Source: a virus
Lineage: Duplodnaviria; Heunggongvirae; Uroviricota; Caudoviricetes
Strand: one strand, 5' to 3'
IMG/VR virus record: IMGVR_UViG_2703719354_000026
DNA length: 5,680 bases
Under the pieces are notes generated by a model. The model was not told where the DNA came from and did not search any database. It was given only the letters and a program-made list of their open reading frames with translations. Positions 2,325-5,680 of this stretch are shown in pieces (position 1 is the stretch's first letter; every line of letters begins with the position of its first letter). A program made the translations under genes and the position numbers.

Positions 2325-2782
2325 AAGCCTACCCCCTGACGAATACGGGCGACAAAAATCAGATGTGCGTGCGGCAGCTGGGCGCGGGCTTCGCGTTCAG
2401 TGGCTGCGGTAACGGTGTAAATATCAATGCTGCTGTGGTGGCACTGCATAAAGCGCCAGACAAAGTAAGGGCGTGCGGATACAGCCATGTGAAAGGCTCC
2501 CAGATGAATTTTAAGGAGTCTCGCTACTACGCTGCTAAACATGGTGGCGAGACGTAACAGGGTTAGCAGACTGGTCATCTGGAAACCAGCGAGCACAAAG
2601 GCTCCCCCGTTACGCCCCGCCATAATGCGGGTATGGGTAGGTTTACGGACACAAAAAAACCGCTTATCGGATGTGGGCGGCTGTCCGCCAGATGTATTCA
2701 GGCTGCTAAACCCGGTCGCCATGTGGGCGACGGGGGAAGCATACAGCCCCGTGATAATTTTTTGCAAGCGGTTTTTACGCAT
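2321..2782 (-). CDS. Hypothetical protein (153 aa); the C-terminal 55 aa (from internal ATG at 2488) is a paralog of ORF 2775..2972 and may be translated separately
   Basis: ATG at 2782 with AGGGG about 8 nt upstream, overlapping the upstream ORF's stop by 8 nt. Internal ATG at 2488 has GGGAG 8 nt upstream. C-terminal domain carries 'FVWRF', 'TEREAR' and 'ARIRQG' motifs. The N-terminal part has a hydrophobic stretch ('AFVLAGFQMTSLLTLLRLATMFSSVVA'). The ORF-track version starts further upstream at 2824 (GTG). Confidence 0.45.
   Translation of the reverse strand: MRKNRLQKIITGLYASPVAHMATGFSSLNTSGGQPPTSDKRFFCVRKPTHTRIMAGRNGGAFVLAGFQMTSLLTLLRLATMFSSVVARLLKIHLGAFHMAVSARPYFVWRFMQCHHSSIDIYTVTAATEREARAQLPHAHLIFVARIRQGVGL
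2333..2351. repeat. Copy 1 of an exact 19-bp direct repeat (plus strand cccctgacgaatacgggcg) at a gene junction
   Basis: Identical 19-mer at 2333..2351 and 2790..2808. On the minus strand it encodes the C-terminal 'ARIRQG' of one protein and supplies the RBS of the next gene. Confidence 0.9.
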
Positions 2783-2972
2783 GATGTGACCCCTGACGAA
2801 TACGGGCGGCGAATACAGCAACACAACCGGACGGGCAACGGCTACGCGCTTCGCGTTCCCTCCAGGCGGTTACGTGGATGATTTGAGATTCTCCGGCACT
2901 CAGTGCCAGAAAACGCCACACAAAGGCCGTTTGTGTGTGTACAAGGTGTGGTATATGATTTACGGCAACCAT
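2775..2972 (-). CDS. Hypothetical small protein (65 aa), first gene of the coupled operon; paralog of the C-terminal domain of ORF 2321..2782
   Basis: ATG at 2972..2970 with AGGAG 5 nt upstream. The ORF-track start at 3074 would force coding through a GC hairpin and has no RBS. Motifs 'FVWRF', 'REREAR', 'ARIRQG' are shared with the paralog, and the differences in those motifs are synonymous. Confidence 0.55.
   Translation of the reverse strand: MVAVNHIPHLVHTQTAFVWRFLALSAGESQIIHVTAWREREARSRCPSGCVAVFAARIRQGSHHA
2790..2808. repeat. Copy 2 of the exact 19-bp direct repeat at a gene junction
   Basis: Same 19-mer as 2333..2351; flanking sequence is diverged. Confidence 0.9.
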
Positions 2973-3002
2973 AACGGCTCCTAGTTTACGTTGTTGGTTA
3001 GA

Positions 3003-3045
3003 AGCCCCGTTACTGCTCCTACAGTGCGGGGCTTTGCTTTTTGTG
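3003..3045 (+). terminator. Terminator-like hairpin with T tract in the divergent intergenic region (plus-strand orientation)
   Basis: Stem agccccg (3003..3009) pairs with cggggct (3027..3033), with inner actg/cagt pairs, followed by TTGCTTTTT. The reverse strand lacks a U tract. Confidence 0.35.
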
Positions 3046-3053
3046 TTGATTGT

Positions 3054-3098
3054 GTGTAATGTGTCATTACACATAAATACATTACATGAGGTGTAATT
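3054..3098. promoter_or_regulatory. Operator array: four TGTAAT-type half-sites in alternating orientation, overlapping candidate divergent promoters
   Basis: GTGTAATG (3054..3061) and CATTACAC (3065..3072) form a perfect 8+3+8 inverted repeat. CATTACAT (3080..3087) and GTGTAATT (3091..3098) form a second pair. Spacings are 11/15/11 bp. The array sits just upstream of the RHH gene start (GTG 3102) and overlaps its GAGG RBS. Confidence 0.55.
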
Positions 3099-3101
3099 AA
3101 C

Positions 3102-3281
3102 GTGTCAACACACAAAAACGAAAGGCGTGGTAATCCTCCGTTCCAGTTCCGTTTAGATCCTGACTTACGGGAAAAGATGGAAAAGGCACAACAACAGGAC
3201 GGCGATGATTCTCTTGCTGCCTGGATAAAGCGAATAATCCGCAAAGAATTACAGCAACGCGGCATAGAACCCAAAGGATAA
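3102..3281 (+). CDS. Arc/MetJ-type ribbon-helix-helix (RHH) DNA-binding protein, 59 aa, GTG start
   Basis: GTG at 3102 with GAGGTG 8-9 nt upstream; in-frame stop immediately upstream at 3087..3089. Translation 'VSTHKNERRGNPPFQFRLDPDLREKMEKAQQQDGDDSLAAWIKRIIRKELQQRGIEPKG' follows the Arc/Mnt/CopG pattern (N-terminal beta strand 'FQFRL', then two helices). Below the ORF-track length threshold, so not listed there. Confidence 0.75.
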   Translation: MSTHKNERRGNPPFQFRLDPDLREKMEKAQQQDGDDSLAAWIKRIIRKELQQRGIEPKG

Positions 3282-3338
3282 AAACTATCAGCGCCGTGGT
3301 GTGAGGAACTACGGCGCATTTCTTTACAGGAGTAGACA

Positions 3339-3524
3339 ATGAACAACGAAGAATTACGGGAAATCGCATTATCCATACTTGAAAGACAGGTAGAAAAAAA
3401 ATTAAGAGAAATGGATGAAATGCCTGACCATGAACAGGAAGCAAGGCCAAAAAGATTTGCCCTTGAGGATTTTCTTAAAAATTGCCCAAGAAAGATGAGA
3501 TCGTGGCGTTGTTGTCCGCCCTGA
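3339..3524 (+). CDS. Hypothetical 61-aa protein co-transcribed with the RHH gene (partner protein, function unknown)
   Basis: ATG at 3339 with AGGAG (3328..3332) 6 nt upstream. It starts 57 nt after the RHH stop and is followed by an intrinsic terminator. Acidic helical N-terminus and a Cys/Pro-rich basic tail ('CPRKMRSWRCCPP'). Confidence 0.6.
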   Translation: MNNEELREIALSILERQVEKKLREMDEMPDHEQEARPKRFALEDFLKNCPRKMRSWRCCPP

Positions 3525-3600
3525 TGACAGATTTGCCAACCAGCCAAAAATGTGGCATCGTTGTCGATGCATAGTGTAATCAACATGTATATCATATTTT

Positions 3601-3627
3601 TGCGACCATCATAGGTCGCATTTTTTT
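3601..3627 (+). terminator. Rho-independent terminator of the RHH operon
   Basis: Perfect 7-bp stem tgcgacc (3601..3607) / ggtcgca (3614..3620), 6-nt loop, then seven T (3621..3627). On the minus strand the hairpin is followed by A-rich sequence, so it is plus-specific. Confidence 0.75.
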
Positions 3628-3664
3628 GCCTGTAATCCGGCAATTGTGGCGCTTCTTCACACAG

Positions 3665-3674
3665 TTGATATAAT
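3665..3674 (+). promoter_or_regulatory. Candidate extended -10 promoter (TGaTATAAT)
   Basis: Exact TATAAT at 3669..3674 preceded by TG at 3666..3667. No good -35, which is acceptable for extended -10 promoters. Confidence 0.3.
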
Positions 3675-3680
3675 TCCAAT

Positions 3681-3748
3681 GCTCATATTTATTTTTTGTG
3701 CAGCAGGTTAATCGTTCACAAAGGCGCTCAGGTAACTGGGCGCTTTTT
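3681..3748 (+). ncRNA. Candidate small RNA of about 68 nt (hypothetical; promoter-to-terminator unit without an ORF)
   Basis: Bounded by the extended -10 element at 3666..3674 and the hairpin + U-tract at 3723..3748. No ORF with an RBS in between. Confidence 0.25.
3723..3748 (+). terminator. Rho-independent terminator-like hairpin
   Basis: Stem ggcgctcag (3723..3731) / ctgggcgc (3736..3743) with one G-U pair, GTAA loop, then TTTTT (3744..3748). Confidence 0.5.
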
Positions 3749-3872
3749 GTTATGCCTGAAAAACCCCAATTTTGTTGTTTTTCAGTTTCACCAGGGCGAA
3801 CGAATCCCCGCCCACGTTCTGGCGTATATTCAATCTTCATGGTTATAGCTCTGTGTTCAGATGATTGATGTG

Positions 3873-3891
3873 TGGCGGCTGCGTGCCGCCA
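3873..3891. other. Perfect hairpin (7-bp GC-rich stem, 5-nt loop) 7 nt downstream of the alpA stop, without a U tract
   Basis: tggcggc (3873..3879) - tgcgt - gccgcca (3885..3891). No T run on either strand, so not a canonical intrinsic terminator. Confidence 0.5.
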
Positions 3892-3897
3892 GCGTGA

Positions 3898-4086
3898 TTA
3901 ATGAACTGCCTTGCAGCTATCCTTCCAGGCCAGAACCTCGGATAAAGACCAGCCAACGGAACGACCGCCAAGTTTACGACGTGATGGGAATTGTCCGGCC
4001 TTTTCCAGGCGGTAGCGACACGTACGGCTAAGGCCGGTTAGTTTTTTGCATTCTTTTTCACGTATAAACCGATCAGTGCTTAACAC
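3898..4086 (-). CDS. alpA: AlpA-family (prophage CP4-57 regulatory protein-type) small HTH transcriptional regulator / excisionase-like protein, 62 aa, GTG start
   Basis: Translation 'LSTDRFIREKECKKLTGLSRTCRYRLEKAGQFPSRRKLGGRSVGWSLSEVLAWK' matches the AlpA pattern (RFLRL..TGLSRST.YRL...G.FP....LG.RSVGW...E...W). GGGGG lies 6 nt upstream of the GTG. There is no in-frame ATG upstream (stop at 4114..4116). It sits directly downstream of the integrase, as is typical. Confidence 0.9.
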   Translation of the reverse strand: MLSTDRFIREKECKKLTGLSRTCRYRLEKAGQFPSRRKLGGRSVGWSLSEVLAWKDSCKAVH

Positions 4087-4450: not shown

Positions 4451-5680
4451 TTATTTTCTTCTGGCTACTGGTAGTGCGGTTACGTTTTCATGTGTTCCCG
4501 CCAGTATCCCTAACCGCTCCATCCACATATCCAGCGCATTGCGTTTAGCATCCAGATAACGGGAATGATTATAAACTCGCTGCATTCCTGGCATCTGGTG
4601 GCCTGTAAGCTGCTCCACGACGTGAGGATCCACGCCTAAATCGTTCAGCATCGTTGTAAAGGTGCGCCGGATGTCATGTAGTGACCAGTGAGGGTGATTT
4701 AGCCTCCTGTGCGCTAATCTGCCGTACTGCGACACGCTTGTTTCCTGTTTCACTTCCCCCAGCAATAAGCCCGTGTGCCTGTTCTGCTCCACCAGCTGCG
4801 TGACGAACGGCAGTATTGCTTCCGGTATGGGCCGGAATATGGCTACCTTCGTTTTGCTGTGCTCCTTCGGAACAGTCCAGAGCATTTCGGTAAAATCCCA
4901 CTCGCCGATCTCCGATAACCTAAGTTCGACCGTCCGGCATCCGAACACAATCAGGAGGCGGATTAGCGCGATGTAGTAGGGGGAGAATATTTTTTTGTCC
5001 AGTGCCTGCAATAATTCGCCAAGTTCTTTGTTGCTTAAGACACGCTCGCTTATATCCGGTTTTTTCCCAACGTCCGCCACACTCATATCATCAAGAACGT
5101 TGCTGATTGCATAGCGCCGCTTCCGGCAGAACTTAAGCGCCTGCTTGCATGTCTGTAGCAGGAACCCGGCGGAAACAGGGGCTTGCTTTGCCACCCGATC
5201 AAAACAGGCCAGCCAGTGCCGTAGCTCGCATTTATCCAGCGGCATAGGGCCAATGTGCTGTATTACGTGATTATTTAGCCGCTTTTTCAGTGGGTCATAA
5301 TCCACACGGTTTTCCTTTGCGTACGACTCAAGCCAGTAGGTGAGCGCATCACCAACCGTTACGGGCTTTAACGCTTCCTGTACGGTGTAATTCATCTCAT
5401 GACGTGGATTTTTCCCCTCTGCCAGCCATGCGCGACACTGGGCGGCTTTTTCCCTGGCTGATTTCAGGCTCAGATCAGGATAATTTCCCAGCTTAATGCG
5501 GTCCGGTGGTGCCCCCCTTCCCGTTCCGGCCCTGTAAGTGAAATACCAGGTTAAAAGGCCACTGGTTGAATGCCTGACGCTCAGGTTTCCACCGTCATTA
5601 AGAAAGGCTGTTTTTTGGGCGGGTGTGCCGTTGATTTTCCTCAGCTGTGTATCGCTCAGTTTGTTAAGTGCTCTGCTCAT
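4451..5680 (-). CDS. int: Tyrosine site-specific integrase, P4-type (N-terminal arm-binding domain plus C-terminal catalytic domain), 409 aa
   Basis: ORF-track ORF. The N-terminus 'LSDTQLRKINGTPAQKTAFLNDGGNLSVRHSTSGLLTWYFTYR' matches the P4-like integrase arm-binding domain. The C-terminus carries 'HDIRRTF', 'LTGHQ' and 'RVYNHSRY' (catalytic His/Arg/Tyr of tyrosine recombinases). The start codon coincides with the last 3 nt of the window, so the true start could lie further upstream. Confidence 0.95.
   Translation of the reverse strand: MSRALNKLSDTQLRKINGTPAQKTAFLNDGGNLSVRHSTSGLLTWYFTYRAGTGRGAPPDRIKLGNYPDLSLKSAREKAAQCRAWLAEGKNPRHEMNYTVQEALKPVTVGDALTYWLESYAKENRVDYDPLKKRLNNHVIQHIGPMPLDKCELRHWLACFDRVAKQAPVSAGFLLQTCKQALKFCRKRRYAISNVLDDMSVADVGKKPDISERVLSNKELGELLQALDKKIFSPYYIALIRLLIVFGCRTVELRLSEIGEWDFTEMLWTVPKEHSKTKVAIFRPIPEAILPFVTQLVEQNRHTGLLLGEVKQETSVSQYGRLAHRRLNHPHWSLHDIRRTFTTMLNDLGVDPHVVEQLTGHQMPGMQRVYNHSRYLDAKRNALDMWMERLGILAGTHENVTALPVARRK

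What the first reader, a model, noticed from the sequence alone, without database searches (positions are those of the whole stretch)
3003..3627. Antisense-embedded RHH module: operator array, Arc-like repressor, 61-aa partner and terminator inside an int-alpA island
Seen in sequence: a self-contained plus-strand unit sits in an otherwise minus-strand element. It is divergent from the eight-gene small-ORF/replication operon (129-bp spacer holding four TGTAAT half-sites) and convergent with alpA. The first gene is a convincing Arc/MetJ-type RHH protein; the second (61 aa, good AGGAG RBS) is not a family I recognise. Established knowledge: RHH proteins (Arc, Mnt, CopG, ParD-type antitoxins) autoregulate via short inverted repeats; in SaPIs a divergent repressor (Stl) holds the replication operon silent, whereas in described Gram-negative PICIs control is attributed to the activator AlpA. 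Inference: this may be a dedicated repressor plus partner (co-repressor, anti-repressor or small toxin) controlling the island, or an atypical RHH-antitoxin pair with a new small toxin. Minus-strand readthrough from alpA would run antisense through it (the terminators are plus-specific), suggesting a transcriptional-interference switch.
Basis: partly seen in the sequence, partly recalled or inferred. Interest (0 to 1): 0.75.

Follow-up and report, generated by a model that had tools for sequence, protein, structure and literature searches.

The report
Repressor-plus-antisense-RNA switch in a phage satellite
A small ribbon-helix-helix DNA-binding protein, its matching operator sites and a previously unnoticed 78-nt antisense RNA form a conserved control cassette at the head of the replication operon of Gram-negative phage satellites (PICIs), which makes it a candidate for the repressor that these elements were thought to lack.

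Summary
It includes a plus-strand unit (3003-3627) between alpA and the leftward Icd-like/C4/replication operon, four TGTAAT half-sites, an Arc-like RHH gene, a 61-aa ORF and plus-specific terminators.

The RHH is not cargo. It or a second small family (YlcI/YnfO type) fills this slot in about 90% of related islands. Homologues occur in Enterobacterales, Orbales, Pasteurellales and Aeromonadales.

Operator sequences change with the protein's beta-strand. There are 3 classes in this family and at least 10 in the sister family. That is immunity-type diversification.

The operators cover the RHH promoter and the candidate leftward promoter. That leftward promoter is weak here and strong in the sister family.

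This RNA covers the ribosome site and start codon of the first leftward gene.

The 61-aa ORF is a real Escherichia/Shigella-only gene family that always follows an RHH gene. Its variants are shuffled relative to RHH type, so a toxin-antitoxin or cognate-partner reading is not supported.

Best model: a P22 immI-like (Mnt/Arc + Sar) switch stacked on a P1/P4-like C4 RNA. Binding and repression are inferred, not shown.

The parts
2931..2959 (+). Predicted promoter of the antisense RNA: -35 TTGTGT (2931-2936), N17, -10 TATGAT (2954-2959). It lies inside the first codons of the Icd-like gene.
   Evidence: A TAnnnT hexamer sits exactly 16 nt upstream of the C of the CAT start-codon complement. It does so in nearly all of 60 loci, whatever family the leftward gene belongs to. 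T-11, A-10, T-9 and T-6 are invariant in 20 of 20 unique upstream sequences from loci not used to build the RNA model. Most of these carry a TGn extended -10.
2965..3043 (+). Predicted ~78-nt cis-antisense RNA. SL1 (about 2967-2999) pairs the start-codon complement with GUUGGUU and presents the anti-Shine-Dalgarno CUCCU (2978-2982) in its loop. SL2 (3001-3035) plus a U-tract is an intrinsic terminator.
   Evidence: RNAalifold predicts 17 pairs, 13 with compensatory changes. 97.1% of cells are paired against 84% in shuffles and 37-50% when slid. The covariation score is 0.448 against 0.189, reached by 0 of 500 shuffles. The structure is plus-strand specific. There are 97 G.U pairs against 10 A.C. 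Mean MFE is -22.5 kcal/mol on the plus strand and -16.9 on the minus strand, and 55 of 55 sequences are more stable on the plus strand. Covariance model R1 hits 55 of 56 sources at 40-82 bits, always antisense to the operon. It is not in Rfam and not in phage P4.
3034..3062 (+). Predicted RHH promoter: -35 TTGCTT (3034-3039, within the U-tract of the antisense-RNA terminator), N17, -10 TAATGT (3057-3062). The start site would be near 3069.
   Evidence: The best plus-strand sigma-70 match falls in the same alignment columns in 53 of 59 loci, with scores of 8-13. In the window itself this site was not the top PWM hit. I read it off the alignment.
3050..3076 (.). Operator O1: TGTAAT-N5-ATTACA inside a 12-nt-arm inverted repeat. 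It covers the -10 and +1 of the RHH promoter. It also fills the 17-bp spacer of the candidate leftward promoter, which is TTTATG (3078-3073), N17, CACAAT (3055-3050).
   Evidence: Operator sequence covaries with the RHH beta-strand class. The exact O1 pattern occurs 62 times in IMG/VR. Each copy lies directly upstream of a class-A RHH gene; two are cut by the contig end just after the gene start.
3079..3098 (.). Operator O2: ATTACA-N5-TGTAAT, over the leader and Shine-Dalgarno sequence of the RHH mRNA.
   Evidence: Classes B and C carry their own palindromes at the equivalent position (GGTGTCAACC and GTGTC.GACAC in class B, GGTAATTACC in class C).
3102..3281 (+). RHH (Arc-like) DNA-binding protein, 59 aa, beta-strand class A (RRGNPPFQFRLDP).
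   Evidence: There are 117 homologue clusters, all unnamed, called 'phage protein' or given HicB-like names. AF2 mean pLDDT is 79. Foldseek top hits are RHH proteins. It hits PHROG 228 'Arc-like repressor' at E 2.1e-6. It has no Pfam hit. It scores 20 bits against NF041551 YlcI/YnfO, below the cutoff of 30.
3291..3327 (+). Terminator T1 after the RHH gene: a 10-pair stem with an interrupted U-tract (ATTTCTTTAC). It is probably leaky.
   Evidence: It is conserved in E. coli and Shigella cassettes.
3339..3524 (+). 61-aa small protein of an Escherichia/Shigella-only family. The family consensus core is ERFAPCAFALEKFLKEY; the window variant has RFALEDFLKNC there.
   Evidence: There are 75 clusters, all 'hypothetical', aligned in A4. 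An exhaustive HMM search found only 21 representatives. All 67 family members in the held loci lie within 400 nt downstream of an RHH gene on the same strand. Variants are shuffled relative to RHH type. AF2 predicts two helices, pTM 0.36. DNA of 3340-3613 is present in only 5 of 5,426 E. coli genomes.
3601..3627 (+). Terminator T2: a 7-pair stem followed by T7.
2775..2972 (-). First gene of the leftward early operon, Icd-like (65 aa). Its ribosome site and start codon are covered by the antisense RNA.
   Evidence: NF033153, 60.2 bits, cutoff 25. It hits phrog_1743 and phrog_6196, the families I take to hold the P4 'cI ORF' product (family membership of P4 cI not checked here).
3898..4086 (-). 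alpA, convergent with the cassette. Read-through from its promoter would cross the cassette antisense.
   Evidence: PF05930, E 5.7e-17. Published AlpA function is in PMC6092414.

Best explanation
The unit is the regulatory (immunity-type) cassette of a capsid-forming PICI-type phage satellite.

The 59-aa RHH protein binds as dimers to the four 11-bp-spaced TGTAAT half-sites (O1, O2). O1 covers the -10 and +1 of the RHH gene's own promoter. O1 also fills the spacer of the weak leftward promoter. The bound protein would therefore shut both its own gene and the early operon (Icd-like, C4 RNA, small ORFs, DUF4222, RepA helicase).

A second layer is a constitutively made ~78-nt antisense RNA (2965-3043). 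It is complementary to the 5' leader, Shine-Dalgarno sequence and start codon of the first early gene, and would block translation of leaky transcripts. A third layer is the P1/P4-type C4 RNA further downstream.

The switch would be overridden in one of two ways. The helper phage could turn on alpA, and AlpA-dependent leftward transcription could then run through the plus-specific terminators and the cassette. Alternatively, a helper factor could inactivate the RHH.

In logic it works like the P22 immI region (Mnt/Arc RHH repressors plus Sar antisense RNA), placed in front of a P1 immI/P4-like c4-icd module.

Shown here: fold, conservation, operator/beta-strand covariation, promoter geometry, and RNA structure with covariation.

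Inferred: DNA binding, repression of the early operon, RNA expression and the induction route.

The 61-aa gene is a separate, lineage-specific small gene. It is probably expressed by read-through of T1 under RHH control. Its function is unknown.
For: Fold: and weak in-register similarity to Arc.

Conserved slot: 73 loci in four orders. The RHH start lies about 127-136 bp from the start of the divergent first gene, whatever that gene is.

Islands selected only by DUF4222: 55 of 56 sources carry the antisense RNA. 53 of 59 RNA hits are followed at once by a small RHH-type gene, either this family or YlcI/YnfO.

Specificity covariation:
- Class A (PPFQFRL) goes with TGTAAT / GTAATG..CATTAC.
- Class B (KQIALRV) goes with TGTCATACA / GGTGTCAAC.
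- Class C (PQYQMRL) goes with GGTAATTACC.
- The sister family has at least 10 beta-strand variants, each with its own triplet of sites.

Promoter geometry:
- The RHH promoter falls in the same columns in 53 of 59 loci, with O1 on the -10 and +1.
- In all 13 sister-family spacer types there is a strong leftward promoter, TTGAC(G/A)-N17-TAnnnT, scoring 8-14.7. The type-specific operator sits inside its spacer.
- The window has the same geometry with a weak TTTATG-[O1]-CACAAT.

The operator is found only in cis: all 62 exact IMG/VR matches lie directly upstream of a class-A RHH gene.

Antisense RNA.

C4 RNA.

[quoted passage not shown] AlpA activates its own promoter and the downstream ORF3, and on its own induces excision and replication (PMC6092414).
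Against: - There is no experimental or transcriptomic evidence here for binding, repression or the RNA.
- In the window's own RHH class the leftward promoter is weak (PWM 6.2) and its position is not consistent across loci. The early operon may therefore be driven mainly from the alpA promoter, leaving the RHH as little more than an autoregulator or roadblock.
- Published work shows that AlpA alone suffices to induce a related PICI, without mention of a repressor.
- I could not check whether the prototype EcCICFT073 carries the cassette (searches missed it).
- Six of 59 antisense-RNA copies had no RHH gene called next to them.
- The RHH matches no Pfam RHH model.
- The beta-strand is not called in the monomer model, and residues 11-20 have pLDDT of about 66.
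Confidence: 0.6

Rival explanations
1. The RHH is only an autoregulated accessory (moron-like) regulator. Its real targets lie elsewhere, in helper-phage or host genes. The early operon is controlled solely by AlpA read-through plus the RNAs.
For: The leftward promoter in the window's class is weak and inconsistent. AlpA alone induces a related PICI (PMC6092414). A 2026 survey lists YlcI/YnfO and HicB-like genes merely as accessory genes (PMC13612085).
Against: All 62 exact O1 matches in 2.9 million viral contigs lie directly upstream of an RHH gene, so no trans site was seen. The slot is conserved in about 90% of sampled islands at a fixed distance from the first early gene. In the sister family the operator lies inside a strong leftward promoter. 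Operators diversify together with the protein, as expected for a cis-acting immunity module.
Confidence: 0.2
2. RHH plus the 61-aa ORF is a type II toxin-antitoxin pair, with an RHH antitoxin and a new small toxin, or else a cognate repressor/co-repressor pair.
For: The gene order (RHH first, small ORF second) is on the same strand with a good ribosome site. All 67 family members follow an RHH gene. There is a weak NCBIfam similarity to a VapB antitoxin model, 16 bits against a cutoff of 60.
Against: A terminator separates the two genes. The partner is absent outside Escherichia/Shigella: 1 of 76 RHH genes in other genera is followed by one. In many genera the RHH gene is solitary or followed by unrelated genes. 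The same partner variant follows RHHs of many specificities and of both families, so there is no co-variation. There are no Pfam, NCBIfam, PHROG or PADLOC hits. The model has no globular fold.
Confidence: 0.05
3. The plus-strand genes are spurious. The real gene is the long minus-strand ORF that PGAP annotates across this region in strain FORC_042 (286 aa).
For: PGAP calls it in FORC_042. The minus frame stays open across the RHH gene in 21 of 24 other class-A loci. Its wobble positions coincide with those of the RHH frame, so a codon-position test cannot separate the two frames.
Against: In the window the ORF is split by a 1-nt indel into 2981-3679 and 3592-3840. The right half of the region is present in only 5 of 5,426 genomes. 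The plus-frame protein is conserved at 50-98% identity across four orders, with an RHH fold and matching operators. Substitutions fall in the order position 2 < position 1 < position 3 in the plus frame. In the minus frame position 2 exceeds position 1. The minus-strand product is rich in Ser, Cys and Leu (my reading of the translation).
Confidence: 0.03

Closest known systems
Phage P22 immI region (Mnt and Arc RHH repressors, overlapping divergent promoters Pant/Pmnt, Sar antisense RNA). Details of P22 are from my own knowledge.
   Same: Both have a small RHH repressor transcribed divergently from the operon it controls. The operators sit inside or over the core promoters. A ~70-80-nt cis-antisense RNA with its own terminator covers the ribosome site of a downstream gene.
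   Different: There is no significant sequence relationship. The profile against Arc gives E 0.0019 for a single comparison at 14% probability. Here there is one RHH gene, not two. The antisense RNA targets the first gene of the operon rather than an internal one. The controlled operon starts with an Icd-like gene and leads to satellite replication genes, not an antirepressor. The context is a phage satellite, not a phage.
P1/P7 immI and P4 immunity (C4/CI antisense RNA with icd)
   Same: The early operon carries a C4 RNA (RF01695, 72.7 bits), an a1b1-like target element and two Icd-like ORFs. alpA occupies the position of P4 vis, upstream of the early operon.
   Different: P4 has neither the RHH nor the new antisense RNA: there is no R1 hit at E <= 1, and no such gene appears in its annotation. 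C4 was not found at gathering score in 18 related RHH loci from other genera. The RHH/antisense cassette is therefore the more widespread layer.
SaPI/Gram-positive PICI master repressor Stl/Rpr
   Same: The repressor gene is divergent from the excision/replication operon of a phage-inducible island. Many specificity types exist.
   Different: Stl proteins are large helix-turn-helix proteins inactivated by helper-phage proteins. Here the protein is a 59-aa RHH, an RNA layer is added, and the inducer is unknown. The published view for Gram-negative PICIs is activation by AlpA (PMC6092414).
YlcI/YnfO family (NF041551), uncharacterised small proteins of E. coli prophages and PICIs
   Same: This family occupies the identical slot in sister islands, with the same cassette layout and its own operator triplets. 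PGAP sometimes gives this name to the window's protein family.
   Different: The window protein scores 20 bits, below the cutoff of 30. Profile comparison with a YlcI-type protein gives E 0.72. No function is published for either family.

Membership tests
Ribbon-helix-helix (Arc/MetJ/CopG) superfamily | beta-alpha-alpha fold of about 45 residues | tested here: met
   AF2 predicts helices 20-33 and 38-52 at pLDDT 93-94, preceded by an extended segment. About 30 of 35 Foldseek PDB hits are RHH domains (NikR, Arc, CopG, ParD, PutA, AmrZ, MazE9). Most align at 0.6-1.0 A over 30-39 residues. E-values are not significant because the domain is short. It hits PHROG 228 'Arc-like repressor' at E 2.1e-6.
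Ribbon-helix-helix (Arc/MetJ/CopG) superfamily | Obligate dimer whose paired N-terminal strands insert into the major groove | not testable with these tools
   Only a monomer could be modelled. The strand is not called by DSSP in the monomer, and residues 11-20 have pLDDT of about 66.
Ribbon-helix-helix (Arc/MetJ/CopG) superfamily | Binds short repeats arranged about one helical turn apart; specificity is set by beta-strand residues | tested here: met
   This was tested at sequence level only. The half-sites are 11 bp apart. Three beta-strand classes each go with a different operator sequence at the same positions. No binding assay was done.
Pfam RHH families (e.g. RHH_1, Arc) | Score above the Pfam gathering threshold | tested here: not met
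   No RHH family was reported at E <= 1.
YlcI/YnfO family (NF041551) | Score at or above the curated cutoff of 30 bits | tested here: not met
   The window protein scores 20 bits, E 5e-4. The sister-slot protein scores 59.7 bits.
Type II toxin-antitoxin module with RHH antitoxin | Cognate toxin gene co-transcribed and co-inherited with the antitoxin | tested here: not met
   A terminator lies between the genes. The partner is absent outside Escherichia/Shigella, and its variants are shuffled relative to RHH type. There is no toxin or defence family hit.
C4/CI antisense-RNA immunity (P1 immI, P4) | C4 RNA, target repeats and an icd-like ORF in one transcript | tested here: met
   RF01695 scores 72.7 bits against a gathering score of 45. 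c4-a1b1 scores 45.5 bits, just under its gathering score of 46.7. Two Icd-like ORFs score 60.2 and 51.4 bits against a cutoff of 25. This concerns the neighbouring operon, not the RHH unit itself.
Capsid-forming PICI (cf-PICI) | int, alpA and a replication module plus its own capsid, protease, portal, connector, HNH and TerS genes | tested here: met
   The 2900-3700 stretch is 99.6% identical to its counterpart in E. coli FORC_042. The island there carries all of these genes, next to roxA. The window itself ends inside the helicase gene.
P22 immI-type switch | Expressed antisense RNA that blocks translation, and RHH repression of the divergent promoter | not testable with these tools
   Structure, covariation and promoter conservation support the RNA. 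Expression and function need experiments.

The most novel reading that the evidence does not exclude
The RHH + operator + antisense-RNA cassette is the long-missing master repressor system of Gram-negative PICIs and cf-PICIs. It would hold the early/replication operon silent and exist in well over a dozen mutually orthogonal immunity types. Helper phages would induce the satellite by neutralising it, either through a helper-encoded anti-repressor (as for SaPI Stl) or through AlpA-driven antisense read-through. The antisense RNA would be a new RNA family.
Probability: 0.3. Interest if true: 0.85.

Novelty: new variant of a known kind. Interest (0 to 1): 0.68.

Why it matters
[quoted passage not shown] It attributes control to the activator AlpA and calls the difference from Gram-positive islands a mystery (PMC6092414). 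I found no paper in the searchable library that describes this RHH or an antisense RNA in these elements. Subscription-only literature could not be searched.

If the cassette does repress the early operon, several things follow:
- It supplies the missing half of the switch.
- It would explain how several related satellites could coexist in one cell without cross-regulation. This assumes the specificity classes are orthogonal, and cross-repression was not tested.
- It offers a defined target for how helper phages induce cf-PICIs.
- It yields a natural set of more than 13 small candidate repressor/operator pairs, plus a compact antisense RNA.

All of this is directly testable with reporters, EMSA and deletions in existing model islands. 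An O157:H7 cf-PICI at the same integration site carries the sister version of the cassette.

Tried and rejected
- Sequence search of the RHH against PDB, as a single sequence and as a profile, gave only non-significant hits. The best RHH hit was ArtA at E 0.5-1.
- Pfam gave nothing for the RHH, the 61-aa ORF or the small leftward ORFs. PADLOC gave nothing.
- The first homologue search for the 61-aa ORF found only two near-identical proteins. That made it look like an orphan, which was an artefact of the word-index prefilter. A profile of four locus-derived homologues found 75 clusters.
- BLASTP of the 61-aa ORF against the L004 homologue was uninformative, E 6.3.
- The codon-position test to separate the RHH frame from the antisense PGAP ORF is nearly uninformative, because the two frames share wobble positions.
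- I tried to locate the prototype EcCICFT073 in the CFT073 genome by coordinates. Two regions (1.395-1.485 Mb) held the icd prophage and chromosomal genes, not the PICI.
- The Rfam weak hits rnk_pseudo (2925-3043, E 0.84) and sau-6072 (3696-3750, E 0.15) are just terminator-like hairpins.
- Rfam found no C4 in 18 related loci from other genera.
- Model R1 found nothing in phage P4.
- A consistent sigma-70 leftward promoter could not be established for the window's own RHH class.
Full report
**1. What the window is**

The 5,680-base window is the integrase-proximal end of an Escherichia coli phage satellite.

Genes on the minus strand:
- int (4451-5680).
- alpA (3898-4086; PF05930, E 5.7e-17).
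- An Icd-like gene (2775-2972).
- A C4 antisense RNA and its a1b1 element.
- A second Icd-like ORF, then several small ORFs.
- A DUF4222 gene (1122-1421).
- The start of a RepA-type helicase.

The finding's unit is on the plus strand.

The 2900-3700 stretch is 99.6% identical to its counterpart in strain FORC_042. The island there continues with SSB, PerC, major capsid, protease, portal, connectors, HNH and small terminase, next to roxA. It is therefore a capsid-forming PICI (cf-PICI) in the sense of bioRxiv 10.1101/2022.09.08.507074.

**2. Check of the observation**

Everything described is present at the stated coordinates.
- The RHH ORF is 3102-3281 (GTG start, GAGG 10 nt upstream).
- The second ORF is 3339-3524 (AGGAG at 3328-3332).
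- The spacer to the divergent start codon is 129 bp.
- TGTAAT occurs 9 times in the window against 3.27 expected, and no shuffle of 200 reached 9. Four copies lie within 43 bp, at 3055, 3066, 3081 and 3092, spaced 11/15/11 bp.
- They sit in a 12-nt-arm inverted repeat.
- Plus-strand terminator-like hairpins follow each ORF, at 3291-3317 and 3601-3620.

**3. The first protein**

The RHH reading is supported.
- AlphaFold2 on a 30-sequence alignment gives two helices (20-33, 38-52) at pLDDT above 90, behind an extended N-terminal segment.
- Foldseek hits in the PDB are almost exclusively RHH domains (NikR, Arc, CopG, ParD, PutA, AmrZ, MazE9, MatP). RMSD is 0.7-1.0 A over 35-39 residues, and E-values are non-significant only because the domain is so short.
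- PHROGs places it in phrog_228 'Arc-like repressor' (E 2.1e-6).
- A profile comparison aligns it in register with Arc (sequence recalled from memory) over strand, helix A and turn, but weakly.

It is not a formal member of any curated family.
- It has no Pfam hit.
- It scores 20 bits against NF041551 (YlcI/YnfO), whose cutoff is 30.
- The 117 homologue clusters are unnamed, called 'phage protein', or given a generic HicB-like label.

**4. Comparative genomics: a core regulatory slot, not cargo**

A scan of one genome per species returned 73 loci from Enterobacterales, Orbales, Pasteurellales and Aeromonadales.
- Wherever flanks are recognisable, the gene lies between alpA/int on one side and the replication genes on the other, on the opposite strand.
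- The start codon of the divergent first gene is always about 127-136 bp from the RHH start. This holds although that gene ranges from 58 aa to more than 500 aa.
- The first gene is usually Icd-like. In Xenorhabdus its N-terminus is fused to the primase.

As an independent sample I fetched 80 IMG/VR loci selected only by the DUF4222 protein. The same slot there holds either this RHH family or a second small family, the true YlcI/YnfO proteins (59.7 bits on NF041551).

**5. Operators covary with the DNA-reading strand**

The family has three beta-strand classes with otherwise near-identical helices. Each class has its own repeats at the same positions of the spacer:

| Class | Beta-strand | Operator repeats |
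|---|---|---|
| A | RRGNPPFQFRLDP | GTGTAATG..CATTACAC and ATTACA..TGTAAT |
| B | KGNKQIALRVEP | TGTCATACA, GGTGTCAACC, GTGTC.GACAC |
| C | KRSPQYQMRL | ATGGTAATTACCAT, twice or three times |

The sister YlcI-type proteins show at least ten beta-strand variants, each with a private triplet of sites:
- TVAARV with GTGTTGAACAC.
- QLNARF with GTGCATCGCAC.
- KLEARV with GGTGTCAGCCAC.
- ALKARV with GGTGTGGCCCAC.
- SVTARI with GTGTAAGACAC, and others.

This is the pattern of immunity-type diversification. It is the strongest available, though indirect, evidence that these proteins bind these sites.

The exact class-A O1 pattern occurs 62 times in 2.9 million viral contigs. Each copy lies directly upstream of a class-A RHH gene; two are cut by the contig end just after the gene start. 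I saw no trans targets.

**6. Promoter geometry**

A sigma-70 promoter for the RHH gene falls in the same alignment columns in 53 of 59 loci. In the window it reads TTGCTT (3034-3039), N17, TAATGT (3057-3062). In the window itself this site was not the top PWM hit. I read it off the alignment. O1 then lies on its -10 and +1, and O2 on the leader and Shine-Dalgarno sequence, so the gene is autoregulated.

For the leftward operon the picture differs by family.
- In all 13 YlcI-type spacer variants there is a strong, position-conserved leftward promoter, TTGAC(G/A)-N17-TAnnnT (scores 8-14.7). The type-specific operator lies inside its 17-bp spacer, and another operator lies near its start site.
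- In the window the same geometry exists: TTTATG (3078-3073), then O1 core, then CACAAT (3055-3050). That promoter is weak (score 6.2) and is not consistently placed across class-A, B and C loci.

Repression of the early promoter is therefore well supported for the sister cassettes and only plausible for this one.

**7.

The hairpin at the left edge of the finding (3001-3035 plus U-tract) is conserved in all loci, with many compensatory changes.

It is selected on the plus strand.
- There are 97 G.U pairs against 10 A.C.
- Mean folding energy is -22.5 kcal/mol on the plus strand and -16.9 on the minus strand.
- All 55 distinct sequences are more stable on the plus strand.

It is thus an intrinsic terminator for a rightward RNA.

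A -10 hexamer (TAnnnT; TATGAT at 2954-2959 here) sits exactly 16 nt upstream of the C of the start-codon complement. It does so in almost every locus, although it lies inside coding sequence of unrelated first genes. In the independent sample its T, A, T and final T are invariant in 20 of 20 distinct upstream sequences, mostly with a TGn extension.

The predicted RNA (2965-3043, about 78 nt) folds into two hairpins in nearly every locus.
- SL1 pairs the AGCCAU start-codon complement with the conserved GUGGUU. It presents the anti-Shine-Dalgarno CCUC/CUCC in its apical loop.
- SL2 is the terminator.

Structure support:
- RNAalifold gives 17 pairs, 13 with compensatory changes.
- 97.1% of cells pair, against 84% in shuffles and 37-50% when partners are slid. 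No shuffle of 500 reached the observed covariation.

A covariance model built from the GTDB loci hits 55 of 56 other sources at 40-82 bits, always antisense to the operon. 53 of 59 hits are followed at once by an RHH-type gene.

The RNA is absent from Rfam 15 and from phage P4. Its terminator's U-tract doubles as the -35 of the RHH promoter.

Expression and function remain to be shown.

**8. The 61-aa ORF**

It first looked like an orphan: two near-identical homologues, and its DNA in only 5 of 5,426 E. coli genomes. Tandem cassettes in locus L004 revealed diverged relatives.

A profile search then found 75 clusters. All are Escherichia or Shigella, all are 'hypothetical', and the family consensus core is ERFAPCAFALEKFLKEY. 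An exhaustive HMM search added almost nothing (21 representatives).

In the loci held here:
- All 67 family members lie within 400 nt downstream of an RHH gene on the same strand.
- 66 of 78 RHH genes in E. coli-type islands are followed by one, against 1 of 78 in other genera.
- The same partner variant follows RHH genes of many specificities and of both families.
- A terminator intervenes.
- Other genera place unrelated genes or nothing there.

The AlphaFold model has two helices and no globular fold (pTM 0.36).

I conclude that it is a real, lineage-specific small gene, probably expressed by read-through of T1. It is not a cognate toxin or co-repressor.

**9. How it most likely works**

RHH dimers on O1 and O2 shut the RHH promoter and the overlapping leftward promoter. 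The antisense RNA blocks translation of any leftward transcript that reaches the Icd-like gene. The C4 RNA adds the P1/P4-type layer downstream.

Published work shows that AlpA activates its own promoter and the gene downstream of it, and that AlpA alone triggers excision and replication of EcCICFT073 (PMC6092414). AlpA-dependent leftward transcription would meet only plus-specific terminators, so it could cross the cassette. Alternatively, a helper protein could inactivate the RHH.

Which route applies is not known.

**10. Comparison with known systems, and novelty**

The logic is that of P22 immI (Mnt/Arc plus Sar RNA), set in front of a P1 immI/P4-type c4-icd module. The proteins are not detectably related by sequence, P4 lacks the cassette, and the context is a satellite.

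What the literature says:
- The HE-PICI paper already noted C4/isrK-type RNAs in a 'dynamic zone' of Gram-negative PICIs (PMC10111431).
- A 2026 survey lists YlcI/YnfO and HicB-like genes only as accessory genes (PMC13612085).
- The 2018 founding paper says a global repressor is 'unclear'.

I found no description of this RHH as a regulator, of its operator classes, or of the antisense RNA. Subscription-only papers could not be searched.

I therefore rate it a new variant of a known kind of switch. It has real interest for the satellite field because it makes an open question directly testable.

Noticed in passing
window 2540-2627 (-) and 2695-2744 (-): A C4 antisense RNA (RF01695, 72.7 bits) and its a1b1 target element (45.5 bits, gathering 46.7) lie inside the 167-aa minus ORF 2321-2824. 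An isrK-like weak hit lies at 2653-2731. That 'gene' is therefore mostly RNA. Only its last ~55 codons (2321-2487) are Icd-like.
   Followed up: partly
window 2981-3679 (-) and 3592-3840 (-); L001 9082-9942: PGAP annotates a 286-aa minus-strand 'hypothetical protein' across the whole RHH unit in strain FORC_042. In the window it is split by a 1-nt indel. Its wobble positions coincide with those of the RHH frame, which keeps it open in 21 of 24 related loci. It is probably an annotation artefact.
   Followed up: partly
window 3574-3588: GTGTAATCAACATGT resembles operator O2 plus the RHH start (3091-3105, 87% identity). It may be a relic of a second cassette. Complete tandem cassettes (antisense RNA, operators and RHH; in L004 each also has a terminator and small ORF) exist in L004, L116 and L117.
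   Followed up: partly
window 3722-3750 (+): A third plus-strand terminator-like hairpin (GGCGCTCAGGTAACTGGGCGC followed by TTTTTGTT) lies between the unit and alpA. It was picked up only as a weak Rfam sau-6072 hit. The 3700-3900 block is conserved at about 93% in roughly 700 E. coli genomes.
   Followed up: no
L003 2898-3018, L114, L152, L097, L091 (YlcI-type spacers): An extra palindrome (CACCTTG..CAAGGTG and variants) lies between the antisense-RNA terminator and the first operator in many YlcI-type cassettes. It is unexplained.
   Followed up: no
L008, L012, L021, L047 (just after the RHH stop): In several other genera a 47-53-aa ORF with a signal or lipoprotein-like N-terminus (MKKIIILAAVLIVAAFLLKSC...) overlaps the RHH stop codon (ATGA). 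In Orbaceae loci (L043, L045) a second RHH-like paralogue follows instead.
   Followed up: no
L024, L025, L027, L029, L032, L033 (Xenorhabdus): The Icd-like N-terminus (MADTQHNQTRPKFT...) is fused directly to a primase of more than 500 aa. alpA follows the RHH gene at +298 with nothing in between. This is the minimal version of the cassette.
   Followed up: no
L009, L011, L020, L047, L057: The Rfam int-alpA RNA motif (RF02996) is present in 5 of 18 related loci. It was not detected between int and alpA of the window.
   Followed up: no
window 2775-2972 (-): The Icd-like protein hits PHROG families annotated 'transcriptional repressor' (phrog_1743, phrog_6196). I suspect this label is inherited from the P4 'cI' ORF, whose immunity factor is an RNA (from my own knowledge). 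If so, the annotation is misleading.
   Followed up: no
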